Shown here: positions 39,001 through 42,000 of the stretch, piece after piece
How the letters are laid out: each line of letters begins with the position of its first letter
How positions within the stretch are numbered: the stretch's first letter is position 1
Assembly: GCF_053078305.1 (NCBI RefSeq)
Contig: NZ_CP166879.1
DNA: 64,000 nucleotides
Strand: one strand, 5' to 3'
Program-made: the position numbers

Positions 39001-42000
39001 GTTAGTTTGGCGAGGCTGGCCCGTATGTTAGTTGCCATATAGATTTAATGAAGTTTTAAACGCTTTAAAAAAGTTGAGATCGCAGTATCAAAAGTTTTGC
39101 CGATTTTAGAATAAACGATTAATTATTGCACAATCGGTATCAAATAGACTTTAAGCGCTCATCCAGACATCACCTGTTTTATTTCAGTATCTTACAGGTG
39201 ATTTCACCTCCTTTCACTAAAACCCTCGTTGGTATCAAATGATTCACCTGGTTACACCAGGCACAGAGTAATGTGACCCAAATGATGCGCATGTTTAACT
39301 TTATGAAGAGTGTCGGCGCTACCCCCATCGTTAAAGCCATTGATGTTCCCGGTGAAAAACTGAACTCTCTGGAAGAACTGTTCCAAAAAACGATGGAAGA
39401 ATACGAGCAACGTTCTAGTACGTTGGCACAGTTAGCCGATGAAGCGAAAGAACTGAATGATGATTCAACCGTCAATTTCCTGCGCGATCTGGAAAAAGAA
39501 CAGCAGCATGATGGCCTGTTGCTGCAAACCATTCTTGATGAAGTGCGCAGTGCGAAACTTGCGGGTATGTGCCCAGTGCAGACCGACCAACATGTTCTGA
39601 ATGTCGTGTCGCATCAGCTGCATTGATCATACATCGGCGCTAATGCATTGCGCCGATGAAGTTTTTGAGAAACCGCTGCCTCATCTTTTTGAAGCAGCGG
39701 TTTTTTAATGGGATTCGCCTTGTGGGGTAAACTTGAGTTCAATCAGCGCGATGGCTTTTTGGATTGCCCGCATGGTGACCGGGTCTGCGGCGGCGGGATG
39801 GTTAGTAAAGTCGATATTCTTCAGCTGGCTGGACATTTTTTCGCGAACTTCAACGGGCGCGATTACATCGAGAACATCCAGAATTTGTTTGATAACCAAC
39901 TGGCAAGCAACCACATCAGAAACCAGTTCCTGATCGGCATTCAGCGGCTGGGACATCGTAATCTCCTGATAGCATTTTGAAAGCCGTTATAGTAGCGGCT
40001 TCACATCTTCAGCGATAGTCACATCCACCGTCACCAGGACACAAAAAAACCTGCCGGAGCAGGTTTTTTTGTTATCGGAACATATTGCCTGGCGGTACGT
40101 CTTTGAACGTCTTGCAATAGTTATTGAACATACTTTTCAGGATTTTGCGCAGTTTCATCGCGGCACTCCGACCATTTGTTATACAGGTGTTATTGTCTTT
40201 GCGCTTATAATATGACAACCATCACAAAAATCAATCTTTATGTGATGCAAATCACATAAATACCCCTTTAATGTTATAAAAATGATAATCAAAAAGCAGC
40301 CCCCCCTTTCTGACACCTACAGATGGCGAGAAATAGCGCCTGCCAGGCGTCTTTTCCGGCCATTGTCGCAGCGCTGTAACGCGTAAAATACTGCTTTCTT
40401 TTACTCTTCTGGCTGGACCATGAGACTTCTGATTCTGACTCTTTCATTAATAACGCTGGTGGGGTGCACAGTTACTCGCCAGGCTCATGTGGGCGAAGTT
40501 GACGCGGCAACAGGTATTGTACGGTTGGTTTATGACCAGGCTTTTTTGCAGCATGCCCATACCGATCGTTATGTCAGTCGCGGGATCGCCGATCGCGCAT
40601 GCCAGCAGGAAGGCTATACCCACGCGATCCCCTTTGGTCAGCCAGTAGGCAACTGTAGCCTTTTTGCGGGTTCCTTATGTTTGAATACGGAATTCACTTT
40701 GTCATATCAGTGCCATCATTCCGCCTTCCCTGTCTTTCTCTAAATATTTTAATCAGCGAGGGGATCTTCGCTGATTAAAGAAATAGCGGTAATGCGTTTT
40801 ATTCCCATTCGTATTTTTAATAATTGAAGTTTATATTTTACCTTTTGCAAATAATAAAATAACAAATTATAGTGACGCCACAGCAACAAATATAACCTTT
40901 GTGGAGCACTATCATGCTGAAACCAGAAATGATTGAAAAACTTAATGAGCAGATGAACCTGGAACTGTACTCTTCACTGCTTTATCAGCAAATGAGCGCC
41001 TGGTGCAGCTATCATACCTTCGAAGGTGCTGCCGCGTTCCTGCGCCGTCACGCCCAGGAAGAGATGACGCATATGCAGCGTCTGTTTGATTACCTGACTG
41101 ATACCGGCAATTTACCGCGTATTAATACCGTTGAATCTCCGTTTGCTGAATATTCCTCACTTGATGAATTATTCCAGGAAACCTATAAACACGAACAATT
41201 AATCACCCAGAAAATTAACGAACTGGCTCATGCTGCAATGACCAATCAGGACTACCCAACATTTAATTTCCTGCAATGGTATGTTTCTGAGCAGCATGAA
41301 GAAGAGAAACTGTTCAAATCGATTATTGATAAATTAAGCCTGGCAGGCAAAAGCGGCGAAGGTCTGTATTTTATCGACAAAGAACTCTCTACCCTCGACA
41401 CACAAAACTAATGCTCTCCGGCGGCAGGTTTTCTGCCGCCGTTTCAAATCAGTGACGGCAAATCTTACTCTGATCGGTCGAAAAACCTTCTTCTGAAGGT
41501 ATAAATTTGCCTTTTGCTGCCAGAAACGCTACCAGCTCTCCCGCTGTCATCCCTTCTGCCGAGCAAGTGTGAAAACGTGCCTGTTCACCAAAACGCGCTT
41601 TAATCGCAGCTTCCAGACTGGCATGCGTATATTGCTCGCCTGATTCAATCATCATATTTAACACTTCATGACCGTGAATAGAGTCCATCGTTCCTCCTCA
41701 AAAAAAAGCCTAGCGTAGCGATTACCGCTTATGAAGACTTTGCGCCAGCGCAGGACTGAATGCTTTTATTGTACATTTAAATTTACACCATATGTAACGT
41801 CGGTTTGACGAAGCAGCCGTTATGCCTTAACCTGCGCCGCAGATATCACTCATAAAGATCGTCAGGACAGAAGAAAGCGTGAAAAACAGAACCCTGGGAA
41901 GTGTTTTTATCGTGGCGGGAACCACAATTGGCGCAGGCATGCTGGCAATGCCGCTGGCTGCGGCCGGTGTTGGTTTTAGCGTTACTTTAATCTTGTTGAT

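What the first reader, a model, noticed from the sequence alone, without database searches (positions are those of the whole stretch)
39150..39626. Mu-like transposable prophage inserted inside ftnB
The ftnB reading frame (39273-39626) matches the C-terminal ~117 residues of ferritin-like FtnB. Upstream it stays in frame only to 39257, then runs into unrelated sequence and a stop at 39240; there is no ftnB start codon, promoter or N-terminal ~50 codons. The phage side ends ...GGTTACA at 39256 (5'-TGTAACC in phage orientation), the TG/CA terminus typical of transposable phages. Three TCACCT(G) copies spaced 33-40 bp inside that end look like transposase end-binding sites.
Basis: partly seen in the sequence, partly recalled or inferred. 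Interest (0 to 1): 0.6.

Follow-up and report, generated by a model that had tools for sequence, protein, structure and literature searches.

The report
Sp18-type Mu-like prophage end in ftnB
The ferritin-like gene ftnB of this E. coli strain was cut in two by a known, randomly transposing Mu-like prophage (the Sp18 type of Shiga-toxin E. coli); this is ordinary, except that the family makes a 4-bp target duplication where Mu makes 5 bp, and this copy now joins ftnB to a distant gene.

Summary
Host DNA identical to the ftnB-yecJ-ftnA locus starts at 39257. Window 1-39256 is a Mu-like prophage about 96-97% identical to the Sp18-type prophages of O157:H7. Its repressor-side terminus (...GGTTACA) ends at 39256 in about 230 E. 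coli genomes, each with different flanking genes.

Three details of the interpretation need correcting.
1. This family duplicates 4 bp, not 5. That held in 6 of 6 clean insertions, including Sakai Sp18. Here the duplication is CCAG.
2. The motif shared by both ends, in the same register, is TTTGATAC(C/T), three copies per end. TCACCT occurs only at this end, so it is a poor candidate for the transposase site.
3. The window is contig JPQG01000003.1 of assembly GCA_000736735.1. This prophage's other end lies 1.7 kb before window base 1, inside yegH and not ftnB. The ftnB 5' half, with the CCAG repeat, is attached to a second, different Sp18-type copy on contig 4.

The window's prophage is therefore a hybrid. 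The most likely cause is a recombinational inversion between two oppositely oriented copies. An assembly chimera is the main alternative.

Interest is low. The element is already known. The 4-bp duplication and the TA terminus are a modest side finding.

The parts
1..39256 (-). Sp18-type Mu-like prophage, read repressor end to mom end on the - strand. The window lacks the last 1,699 bp (rest of the DUF826 gene, com, mom and the R terminus), which lie before window base 1 on the source contig.
   Evidence: Collinear at 86-97% identity with the prophage in O157:H7 F8798. Gene content from annotated homologues. L045 is 100% identical to window 1-15705 and extends to the R terminus.
39250..39256 (-). 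Left (repressor-side) terminus of the phage: ...GGTTACA on the + strand, 5'-TGTAACC in phage orientation.
   Evidence: Homology stops most often at 39256 in 230 genomes with different flanks. Identical terminus in Sakai Sp18.
39257..39260 (+). CCAG, the right-hand copy of the 4-bp target-site duplication in ftnB.
   Evidence: Window junction GGTTACA|CCAGGCA. Reciprocal junction ...GCGCCCAG|TATAGCG on contig 4 of the same assembly. Intact sequence GCGCCCAGGCA.
39257..39626 (+). 3' remnant of ftnB: residues 46-167, with no start codon or promoter of its own. The longest ORF starts at GTG 39273 (117 aa).
39231..39239 (-). TTTGATACC, proposed transposase end-binding site L1 (nt 18-26 from the terminus).
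   Evidence: Same motif at nt 18-26 from the R terminus. Invariant in relatives down to 82% identity.
39136..39144 (-). TTTGATACC, proposed site L2 (nt 113-121 from the terminus).
   Evidence: It is an island of conservation inside diverging sequence.
39084..39092 (-). TTTGATACT, proposed site L3 (nt 165-173 from the terminus).
39170..39249 (.). Cluster of TCACCT hexamers specific to the L end: 39170, 39204 and 39244 on +, 39196 on -. It includes the inverted repeat ATCACCTG-N18-CAGGTGAT. Conserved, function unknown. Candidates are packaging-site or bending-protein binding.
   Evidence: Absent from the R end and from the c-ner intergenic region.
38475..39005 (+). Repressor (c-like), 176 aa, transcribed towards the phage end.
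   Evidence: phrog_3037 transcriptional repressor, E 1e-62. 176/176 residues identical to the O157 copy.
38036..38284 (-). Ner-like early repressor, 82 aa.
   Evidence: phrog_769, E 3e-26. SfsB/Ner family match.
35944..38034 (-). Transposase A, 696 aa, intact.
   Evidence: Pfam Mu-transpos_C 3.5e-17 and HTH_Tnp_Mu_1 1.6e-5. phrog_310 transposase, E 6e-213. 22% identical to MuA along the full length.
34940..35872 (-). Transposition ATPase B, 310 aa, intact.
   Evidence: phrog_296 DNA transposition protein, E 1e-109. 48% identical to MuB.
2911..5440 (+). IS66-family insertion sequence (tnpA, tnpB, tnpC) inserted in the gin invertase gene. GTAAGCGT... inverted repeats. ACGAAAAT is duplicated, and the right boundary is ambiguous by up to 3 bp.
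   Evidence: NCBIfam IS66 TnpA, TnpB and transposase. Boundaries.
2606..2910 (-). gin (serine invertase), 3' fragment.
   Evidence: Mapping to the recombinase gene of L002.
5441..5705 (-). gin, 5' fragment. Its read-through product was the lineage-specific marker that identified the source contig.
458..2515 (-). 685-aa SASA/DUF6645 cargo gene near the mom end. It is a variable module shared with lambdoid prophages.
   Evidence: Pfam families listed. 86% identical to the O157 copy.

Best explanation
Window 1-39256 is a resident Sp18-type Mu-like transposable prophage. It is the same family as prophage Sp18 of E. coli O157:H7 Sakai.

How the insertion happened. An ancestor copy transposed into codon 45/46 of ftnB. 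The mechanism (inferred) is a DDE transposase (A) working with a MuB-like ATPase (B). The transposase would bind three TTTGATAC(C/T) sites at each phage end and join the 3' ends to target DNA cut with a 4-bp stagger. Repair of the gaps duplicated CCAG. This left a 3' remnant of ftnB with no promoter or start codon (39257-39626). ftnB is inactivated.

Why this copy is a hybrid. The strain (assembly GCA_000736735.1) carries a second, roughly 1% different Sp18-type copy in the opposite orientation in yegH. yegH lies roughly 150 kb from ftnB in K-12 by my recollection, and no more than 213 kb away on this contig. The window's prophage has its left end at ftnB 3' and its right end at yegH 3'. The ftnB 5' half sits on the other copy. 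The most likely cause is homologous recombination between the two inverted copies, which would have inverted the segment between ftnB and yegH.

Shown:
- family identity
- the terminus position
- the 4-bp duplication rule
- both ftnB junctions
- the mismatched flanks
- intact A, B, c and ner genes

Inferred:
- the binding-site assignment
- the stagger chemistry
- that the hybrid reflects a real inversion and not an assembly error (about 60:40 in favour of a real inversion).
For: Family and terminus
- 86-97% nucleotide identity and collinearity with O157 prophages.
- Same termini as Sakai Sp18.
- 230 genomes carry this end at different loci, and homology stops at 39256.

Proteins
- A has Mu-transpos_C and HTH_Tnp_Mu_1.
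- PHROGs names A transposase, B DNA transposition protein, and Ner and c repressors.
- B is 48% identical to MuB.
- All four genes are full length and at least 98.7% identical to an O157 copy.

Duplication
- 4 bp in citF, dcuC, ldcC, hyfE, a lambdoid nanS-p-like gene and sorM.
- The predicted 82-aa FtnB(1-46) read-through protein, built on a 4-bp duplication, exists exactly once in the public record, with the junction ...GCGCCCAG|TATAGCG.

End-binding sites
- TTTGATACY lies at nt 18, 113 and 165 from the L terminus and nt 18, 40 and 75 from the R terminus, all in one orientation.
- 5 copies in the window against 0.8 expected.
- They stay conserved as islands in relatives of 82-94% identity.

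Hybrid structure
- L045 (contig 3 of the same assembly) is 100.000% identical to window 1-15705.
- It continues to an R terminus flanked by ...GACGAA and the 3' part of yegH, then asmA, in inverted orientation relative to ftnB.
- The two copies differ at 51 positions in 4.6 kb, and only one has the IS66 element.
- A complete genome (strain 2313) also has an Sp18-type copy with unrelated flanks, hyaE and torS, so such rearrangements occur in finished assemblies.
Against: - The fourth junction expected from the inversion model (yegH 5'|left end) was not found. The exact-protein look-up returned only contigs that end in intact yegH.
- The source is a draft assembly, and contig 4 ends inside the second prophage. 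A mis-join through the 39-kb repeat would give the same contig structure.
- No binding, footprinting or transposition experiment supports the TTTGATACY assignment or the 4-nt stagger. Both rest on comparative sequence only.
- The transposase is only 22% identical to MuA and does not reach the solved MuA structures by sequence search, so mechanistic transfer from Mu is an analogy.
Confidence: 0.8

Rival explanations
1. Simple single insertion: one Mu-like prophage sits between the two halves of ftnB, flanked by a target duplication.
For: Both ftnB junctions exist in the same assembly with a matching CCAG repeat. The phage terminus is exactly at the break.
Against: On the source contig, the prophage that carries the ftnB 3' junction runs without interruption to an R terminus flanked by yegH 3' and asmA, with the flank CGAA. 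The ftnB 5' junction is attached to a copy that differs in sequence and has an intact gin.
Confidence: 0.05
2. Assembly chimera. The real genome has two simple insertions, one in ftnB and one in yegH, and the assembler switched copies inside the 39-kb near-identical repeat. That would create an apparent hybrid prophage and an apparent inversion.
For: The source is a draft WGS assembly. Contig 4 stops 7.9 kb into the second prophage. The two copies are 99% identical where they can be compared. A chimera and a true inversion predict identical junction sequences.
Against: Contig 3 is 1.42 Mb and passes through the IS66 element and a whole prophage, which suggests long reads. The copies differ enough (about 0.5-1%, plus the IS and different G-segment alleles) to be told apart. 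Hybrid flanks also occur in a finished genome.
Confidence: 0.33
3. Intramolecular replicative transposition, a Mu-type inversion. A single copy in ftnB transposed replicatively into yegH on the same chromosome. That would produce two inverted copies, each with one old and one new flank.
For: The topology (old flank plus new flank on each copy, inverted segment between them) is what Mu-type intramolecular replicative transposition produces (established knowledge of Mu). The A and B genes are intact.
Against: Copies made this way are identical when formed. Here they differ at 51 positions in 4.6 kb, include a dense mosaic patch, carry different G-segment alleles (90-96% identity), and only one has the IS66 insertion.
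Confidence: 0.05
4. The ftnB-like ORF is a natural short paralogue or an old pseudogene unrelated to the phage.
For: ftnB is often broken in other E. coli by frameshifts, IS1 or other insertions. A paralogue, ftnA, lies 1.3 kb away.
Against: 99.9% identity and full synteny with the ftnB-yecJ-azuC-yecR-ftnA locus. The break coincides to the base with the conserved phage terminus. The missing half carries the matching 4-bp repeat. ftnB is single-copy in E. coli genomes (median 1 place per genome).
Confidence: 0.01

Closest known systems
Prophage Sp18 of E. coli O157:H7 Sakai (Mu-like) and its relatives in STEC genomes
   Same: Same terminal sequences, TGTAACCAGGTGAATC... and ...CGCCGCGCTATA. Same gene order from c, ner, A, B through gam, mor, lysis, head, tail, gin and the G segment to com and mom. 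86-97% nucleotide identity to O157:H7 copies of the family. 4-bp duplication. Published work reports Sp18 as predicted intact, packaged, not circularised, and at strain-specific sites (PMC2669165, PMC7430833).
   Different: This copy has an IS66-family element in gin, a different allele of the SASA/DUF6645 cargo gene and of the G segment, new flanks (ftnB 3' and yegH 3'), and a hybrid structure.
Escherichia phage Mu (Muvirus mu)
   Same: Genome layout. Divergent c/ner control region at the left end. MuB-like ATPase (48% identity). A transposase with a Mu N-terminal DNA-binding domain and Mu-transpos_C. Near-random insertion. Three candidate transposase sites per end, with a long L1-L2 spacer on the left and closely spaced sites on the right. 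The Mu site layout is from my own knowledge of Craigie, Mizuuchi and Mizuuchi 1984.
   Different: The transposase is only 22% identical to MuA. The end sequences are unrelated beyond TGTA. The duplication is 4 bp and not 5. The right terminus ends in TA and not CA.
B3-type transposable phages and the Leptospira TA-TA prophages (PMC8705779)
   Same: Transposable prophages of about 38 kb with a fixed short duplication. The Leptospira group shows that TA termini can replace TG-CA.
   Different: Those make 6-bp duplications and use a Tn552-like transposase. Here the duplication is 4 bp. The nearest sequenced-phage transposases are Mannheimia 3927AP2 (45%) and the Pseudomonas D3112/DMS3 group (about 30%).

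Membership tests
Mu-like transposable phages | DDE transposase with Mu-type domains | tested here: met
   Pfam Mu-transpos_C E 3.5e-17 and HTH_Tnp_Mu_1 E 1.6e-5, with a weak rve core. phrog_310 transposase E 6e-213. Collinear with MuA at 22% identity.
Mu-like transposable phages | MuB-like AAA+ target-capture ATPase next to the transposase | tested here: met
   48% identity to MuB, E 2e-97. phrog_296.
Mu-like transposable phages | Insertion at many unrelated chromosomal sites | tested here: met
   278 places in 230 genomes, with flanks such as hyaE, dcuC, citF, ldcC, hyfE, ypdB, tssM and prophage genes.
Mu-like transposable phages | Short target duplication of fixed length flanking the element | tested here: met
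   Exactly 4 bp in 6 of 6 same-genome pairs, plus the ftnB pair. The length differs from Mu (5 bp) and B3 (6 bp).
Mu-like transposable phages | 5'-TG...CA-3' termini | tested here: not met
   The left end is TG. The right end is ...CTATA-3' in all 8 right-end junctions read (6). Two relatives have TA at the left end too. TA termini have a precedent in Leptospira prophages (PMC8705779).
Mu-like transposable phages | Multiple transposase-binding sites in both ends | tested here: inconclusive
   Three TTTGATACY sites per end in one orientation, in the same register at site 1, and conserved. No binding data.
Mu-like transposable phages | Mu-type gene order: c/ner, A, B, gam, mor, lysis, head, tail, invertible G segment with gin, com/mom | tested here: met
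   Annotated homologues, collinearity and Pfam families on the source contig.
Mu-like transposable phages | Replication by transposition, no circular excision, headful packaging with host DNA at the ends | not testable with these tools
   Reported for Sp18 in the literature: packaged and not circularised (PMC2669165).
Sp18-type prophage (E. coli O157 Sakai) | Same terminal sequences and high nucleotide identity over the genome | tested here: met
   Termini identical to Sakai Sp18. 92-97% identity over most of the genome to O157 copies. c 176/176 and A 687/696 residues identical.
Escherichia phage Mu (genus Muvirus) in the strict sense | 5-bp duplication, MuA-like transposase and Mu att sites | tested here: not met
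   4-bp duplication. 22% identity to MuA. No MuA structure reached by phmmer at E 1e-3. End sequences unrelated beyond TGTA.

The most novel reading that the evidence does not exclude
The Sp18 family may be a mechanistically distinct branch of Mu-like transposable phages. Its transposase is 22% identical to MuA, appears to cut targets with a 4-bp stagger, and uses a 3'-TA terminus at the right end (in some relatives at both ends). I found no report of either property for a Mu-type phage in the searchable literature, which gives 5 bp for Mu, 6 bp for B3-type phages and TG-CA ends as near-universal. If this is real and unreported, the family offers a natural comparison for what sets the stagger length in DDE transpososomes. 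It would also matter for prophage-boundary tools that assume 5 bp and TG/CA.
Probability: 0.5. Interest if true: 0.4.

Novelty: already known. Interest (0 to 1): 0.22.

Why it matters
The prophage family is known, and an insertion into a dispensable gene is routine, so the finding matters little for biology at large. It has three practical uses.
1. It corrects the rule for delimiting Sp18-type prophages: 4-bp duplication, termini TGTAACC...GCTATA, and TTTGATACY end sites. The deposited Sakai annotation places the boundaries 1 and 5 bp away from these termini.
2. It shows that multiple Sp18-type copies can act as substrates for large chromosomal rearrangements in STEC-like strains, as lambdoid prophages do.
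3. It flags a contig whose structure should be checked before it is used for synteny or inversion analyses.

Tried and rejected
- Scan of the genome collection (one genome per species) for the predicted reciprocal junction and for the observed junction: both gave nothing. The source genome is not in that collection, so the negative says nothing about the junction.
- Exact look-ups of the ftnB remnant as 117, 114 or 113 aa: these found only other strains with frameshifted or IS-disrupted ftnB, or contigs that begin in ftnB. None carried the phage junction.
- Look-up of the 685-aa cargo protein: found two other strains with different flanks, but not the source.
- Look-up of the predicted YegH(1-207)-Val product for the fourth junction: the matches were contigs ending in intact yegH. 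Intact YegH also has Val at residue 208, so the test could not discriminate. This strain's yegH allele is also unusual (best 99.1% identity).
- A 5-bp duplication: I tested it by shifting either terminus by one base. It fails in 4 of 5 insertions when the right-end T is reassigned to the host, and in 3 of 5 when the left-end A is reassigned.
- TCACCT as the transposase site: rejected as the main candidate because it is absent from the right end.
- The ATCACCTG-N18-CAGGTGAT repeat as an intrinsic terminator: not detected as one.
- The 'tRNA-OTHER' that PGAP annotates in reference prophages: ARAGORN does not find it in the window.
- Literature searches for a reported 4-bp duplication in Mu-like phages: nothing relevant found. 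The library lacks most subscription journals, so this is weak evidence of novelty.
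Full report
**1. What is at the coordinates**

The window is E. coli chromosome. An uninterrupted ftnB locus from strain 14EC033 (L001: araHGF, ftnB, yecJ, azuC, yecR, ftnA, yecH, tyrP, yecA) aligns to window 39257-43999 at 98.8% identity and does not extend further left. The intact gene reads ...TTCCTTCGCGCCCAGGCACAGAGTAATGTG. The window reads ...TGATTCACCTGGTTACA|CCAGGCACAGAGTAATGTG.

The remnant keeps FtnB residues 46-167 of 167. Its frame runs into a TGA at 39240, and the first usable start codon is GTG at 39273, giving 117 aa. 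ftnB is single-copy in 5,418 of 5,426 complete E. coli genomes. No second copy or 5' fragment lies in the window.

**2. What the left-hand sequence is**

Window 1-39256 is collinear with a prophage found in many Shiga-toxin E. coli, mostly at 92-97% identity and 86-91% around the cargo gene and G segment. Read on the minus strand from 39256, the order is:
- a 176-aa repressor, divergent from the genes that follow
- an 82-aa Ner-like repressor
- a 696-aa transposase
- a 310-aa ATPase
- then, as annotated in homologous records: gam, mor, lysis, head and contractile-tail genes, an invertible tail-fibre segment with a serine invertase, a few small cargo genes, com and mom.

PHROGs assigns the four early proteins to transposase (E 6e-213), DNA transposition protein (E 1e-109) and two transcriptional repressors. 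Pfam finds Mu-transpos_C (E 3.5e-17) and the Mu N-terminal DNA-binding domain (E 1.6e-5) in the transposase. All four genes are full length and 98.7-100% identical to an O157:H7 copy.

The named prototype of this family is prophage Sp18 of O157:H7 Sakai. Its termini are identical to those here. The literature describes it as Mu-like, predicted intact, packaged and not circularised (PMC2669165), and as sitting at strain-specific sites (PMC7430833).

**3. The terminus**

I queried the last 300 phage bases plus 20 host bases against all complete E. coli genomes. This found 278 places in 230 genomes. Homology stopped most often at window 39256, next to unrelated genes such as hyaE, dcuC, citF, ldcC, tssM and various prophage genes. 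Matches that ran one or a few bases further are what chance extension would give.

No complete RefSeq E. coli genome has this particular phage-ftnB junction.

In phage orientation the left end starts 5'-TGTAACC. It is not a rule of the family, though. The mom-side terminus is ...GCCGCGCTATA-3' in all 8 right-end junctions I read (6). Two relatives at 92-94% identity end in ...GGTTATA at the left end as well.

**4. Target duplication**

In six insertions where both junctions lie in one genome, the flanks share exactly 4 bp:

| Target | Duplication |
|---|---|
| citF | CGAA |
| dcuC | TAAT |
| ldcC | ATAA |
| hyfE | CCTG |
| nanS-p-like gene of a lambdoid prophage | CAGG |
| sorM (Sakai Sp18 itself) | TAAA |

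Reassigning either terminal base to the host does not rescue a 5-bp repeat. It fails in 4 of 5 insertions when the right-end T is moved, and in 3 of 5 when the left-end A is moved.

The literature I could search gives 5 bp for Mu and 6 bp for B3-type phages. [quoted passage not shown] I found no report of a 4-bp duplication.

**5. The reciprocal ftnB junction**

From the 4-bp rule I predicted the missing junction as ...TTCGCGCCCAG|TATAGCGCGG. I also predicted the protein a gene caller would record there: FtnB residues 1-46 followed by 36 read-through residues, 82 aa in all. That exact protein is on record once, in NCBI assembly GCA_000736735.1, contig JPQG01000004.1. Its gene order is otsA, otsB, araH, araG, araF, ftnB 5', then mom, DUF826, DUF1378, SASA/DUF6645, gin and tail-fibre assembly genes. 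The junction sequence is as predicted.

So ftnB was split by transposition of an Sp18-type phage, with CCAG duplicated.

**6. The window's prophage is not that simple insertion**

The contig 4 copy differs from the window. It has 22 mismatches in 2.9 kb, an intact gin, and a different G-segment allele.

In the window an IS66-family element splits gin. The N-terminal Gin fragment reading into the IS should be unique to this lineage, so I looked it up. It is on record once, in the same assembly but on contig JPQG01000003.1 (1.42 Mb). That locus is 100.000% identical to window 1-15705 with no mismatch. The window is therefore contig 3, at about positions 1172962-1236961.

The locus continues 1,699 bp past window base 1 to the prophage's right terminus. 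The flank there is ...CCTTTCGGAATGACGAA|TATAGCG, followed by the 3' part of yegH (from codon 208) and then asmA.

The two flanks of this prophage are CGAA and CCAG, which do not match. The yegH-asmA side is also inverted relative to the ftnB side, compared with the usual E. coli arrangement. I recall both genes lying on the same strand in K-12. The wza-yegH-asmA arrangement was confirmed in L046.

**7. Interpretation of the hybrid**

The layout matches what homologous recombination between two oppositely oriented copies would produce:
- Copy X was in ftnB, with its R end on the araF side.
- Copy Y was in yegH, with its L end on the wza side.

After such an inversion, one hybrid copy links ftnB 5' to yegH 5'. 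The other links asmA-yegH 3' to ftnB 3'. The second is the window's copy.

I considered two alternatives:
- **Mu-type intramolecular replicative transposition** gives the same topology but makes identical copies. These copies differ at 51 positions in 4.6 kb, including a 28-difference patch. They also differ in G-segment alleles and in the IS. I consider this unlikely.
- **An assembly mis-join** through the 39-kb repeat would give the same contigs, and I cannot exclude it. The assembly is a draft and contig 4 ends inside the second prophage.

The fourth junction (yegH 5'|left end) could not be found. The predicted product happens to equal the first 208 residues of intact YegH, and the matches were contigs ending in intact yegH.

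A finished genome (strain 2313) shows a single Sp18-type copy between hyaE and torS with no shared repeat. So rearranged flanks do occur in this family in nature.

I put a real inversion at about 60% and a chimera at about a third.

**8. The proposed transposase sites**

TCACCT occurs at 39170, 39204 and 39244 on the + strand and at 39196 on the - strand. The cluster is real and lies in a block of about 90 bp that is invariant in relatives down to 82% identity. It is absent from the first 260 bp of the right end and from the c-ner control region.

A transposase must recognise both ends. The motif that both ends share is TTTGATAC(C/T):
- It lies at nt 18-26, 113-121 and 165-173 from the left terminus, and at nt 18-26, 40-48 and 75-83 from the right terminus, all in one orientation.
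- There are 5 copies in the window against 0.8 expected, and 3 of them lie in the last 175 bp.
- The two inner left-end copies are islands of conservation inside diverging sequence.

One terminal site followed by a long spacer on the left, and closely spaced sites on the right, resembles Mu's L1-L3 and R1-R3 layout (my own knowledge of the Mu literature). The sequences themselves are unrelated to Mu's.

TTTGATACY is therefore the better-supported candidate. TCACCT is more likely to serve a function specific to the left end. In Mu the packaging site and an HU-bent spacer lie in the left end (from memory, not verified here). That is a plausible role, not a demonstrated one.

**9. Relation to Mu**

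The ATPase is 48% identical to MuB. The transposase is only 22% identical to MuA, although the two align along their whole length. It does not reach the solved MuA structures by sequence search. Retroviral integrase cores are the only hits. Among sequenced phages its nearest relatives are Mannheimia 3927AP2 (45%) and the Pseudomonas D3112/DMS3 group (about 30%).

The element works like Mu and belongs to the Mu-like transposable phages. It is not a member of Mu's own genus-level group. The divergent transposase fits the different end sequences, the TA terminus and the 4-bp duplication.

**10. Verdict**

This is a known prophage family at a new site, in a gene that is often broken in other E. 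coli by frameshifts, IS1 or other insertions. Interest is low. The useful results are:
- corrected family rules: 4-bp duplication, termini, and end sites
- identification of the source contig
- the finding that this copy is a hybrid that joins ftnB to yegH, which needs read-level confirmation.

Noticed in passing
window 2911-5440 (right boundary ambiguous to 5443): An IS66-family element (tnpA 2997-3422, tnpB 3419-3769, transposase 3800-5413) is inserted in the gin invertase gene, with GTAAGCGT... inverted repeats and a duplicated ACGAAAAT. It should lock the tail-fibre G segment (about 5768-7148), which is inverted relative to the O157 reference copy.
   Followed up: partly
L004, L005/L006, L009/L010, L011/L012, L002, L043/L044 (Sakai Sp18): Sp18-type prophages are flanked by 4-bp duplications, not 5-bp, and end ...CTATA-3' on the mom side. 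The deposited Sakai annotation (5040971-5079729) is offset from these termini by 1 bp at one end and 5 bp at the other.
   Followed up: yes
L037 and L038 (alignment A2): Two relatives at 92-94% identity have TA where the window has CA at the left terminus (...GGTTATA). This family tolerates either base pair next to the cleavage site.
   Followed up: partly
L003 (E. coli strain 2313, complete genome): A single Sp18-type copy lies between hyaE and torS with no shared flanking repeat. This looks like a Mu-type adjacent deletion or rearrangement in a finished genome.
   Followed up: no
window 458-2515; L002 1480-3207 and 41935-42075: The Mu-like prophage carries a 685-aa SASA/DUF6645 gene plus DUF1378 and DUF826 genes, a module otherwise typical of lambdoid prophages. 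In strain F8798 an Sp18-type copy has inserted into the lambdoid homologue of that gene (DUF1737 and DUF6645 halves, duplication CAGG). The module is variable, at 86% identity between copies.
   Followed up: partly
L014-L027 (ftnB loci of other strains): ftnB is split or truncated in many unrelated E. coli assemblies by frameshifts (about 50 aa plus 114-117 aa), by IS1 (L025) or by a 5-kb insertion (L027). This suggests the gene is readily lost.
   Followed up: no
L006 and L045 (right-end junctions in citF and yegH): Two independent insertions share the same six flanking bases, ...GACGAA|TATAGCG. Eight sites are too few to tell chance from a target preference.
   Followed up: no
L013 (contig JPQG01000004.1, end of contig): Contig 4 ends in the tail-fibre/G-segment region of the second prophage copy, whose gin is intact. 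Active G inversion in the culture could explain the assembly break there. This is speculation.
   Followed up: no
L002 24196-24276, L003 18731-18811, L004 23735-23815: RefSeq annotates a 'tRNA-OTHER' between the head-morphogenesis and virion-morphogenesis genes of Sp18-type prophages. ARAGORN finds no tRNA anywhere in window 1-39300.
   Followed up: partly
L045 17405-18800 (yegH 3' part and the yegH-asmA spacer of the source strain): This stretch is at most 99.1% identical to any of 5,426 complete E. coli genomes, whereas the ftnB side is 99.9% identical to many. The strain's yegH-asmA region is an uncommon allele.
   Followed up: no
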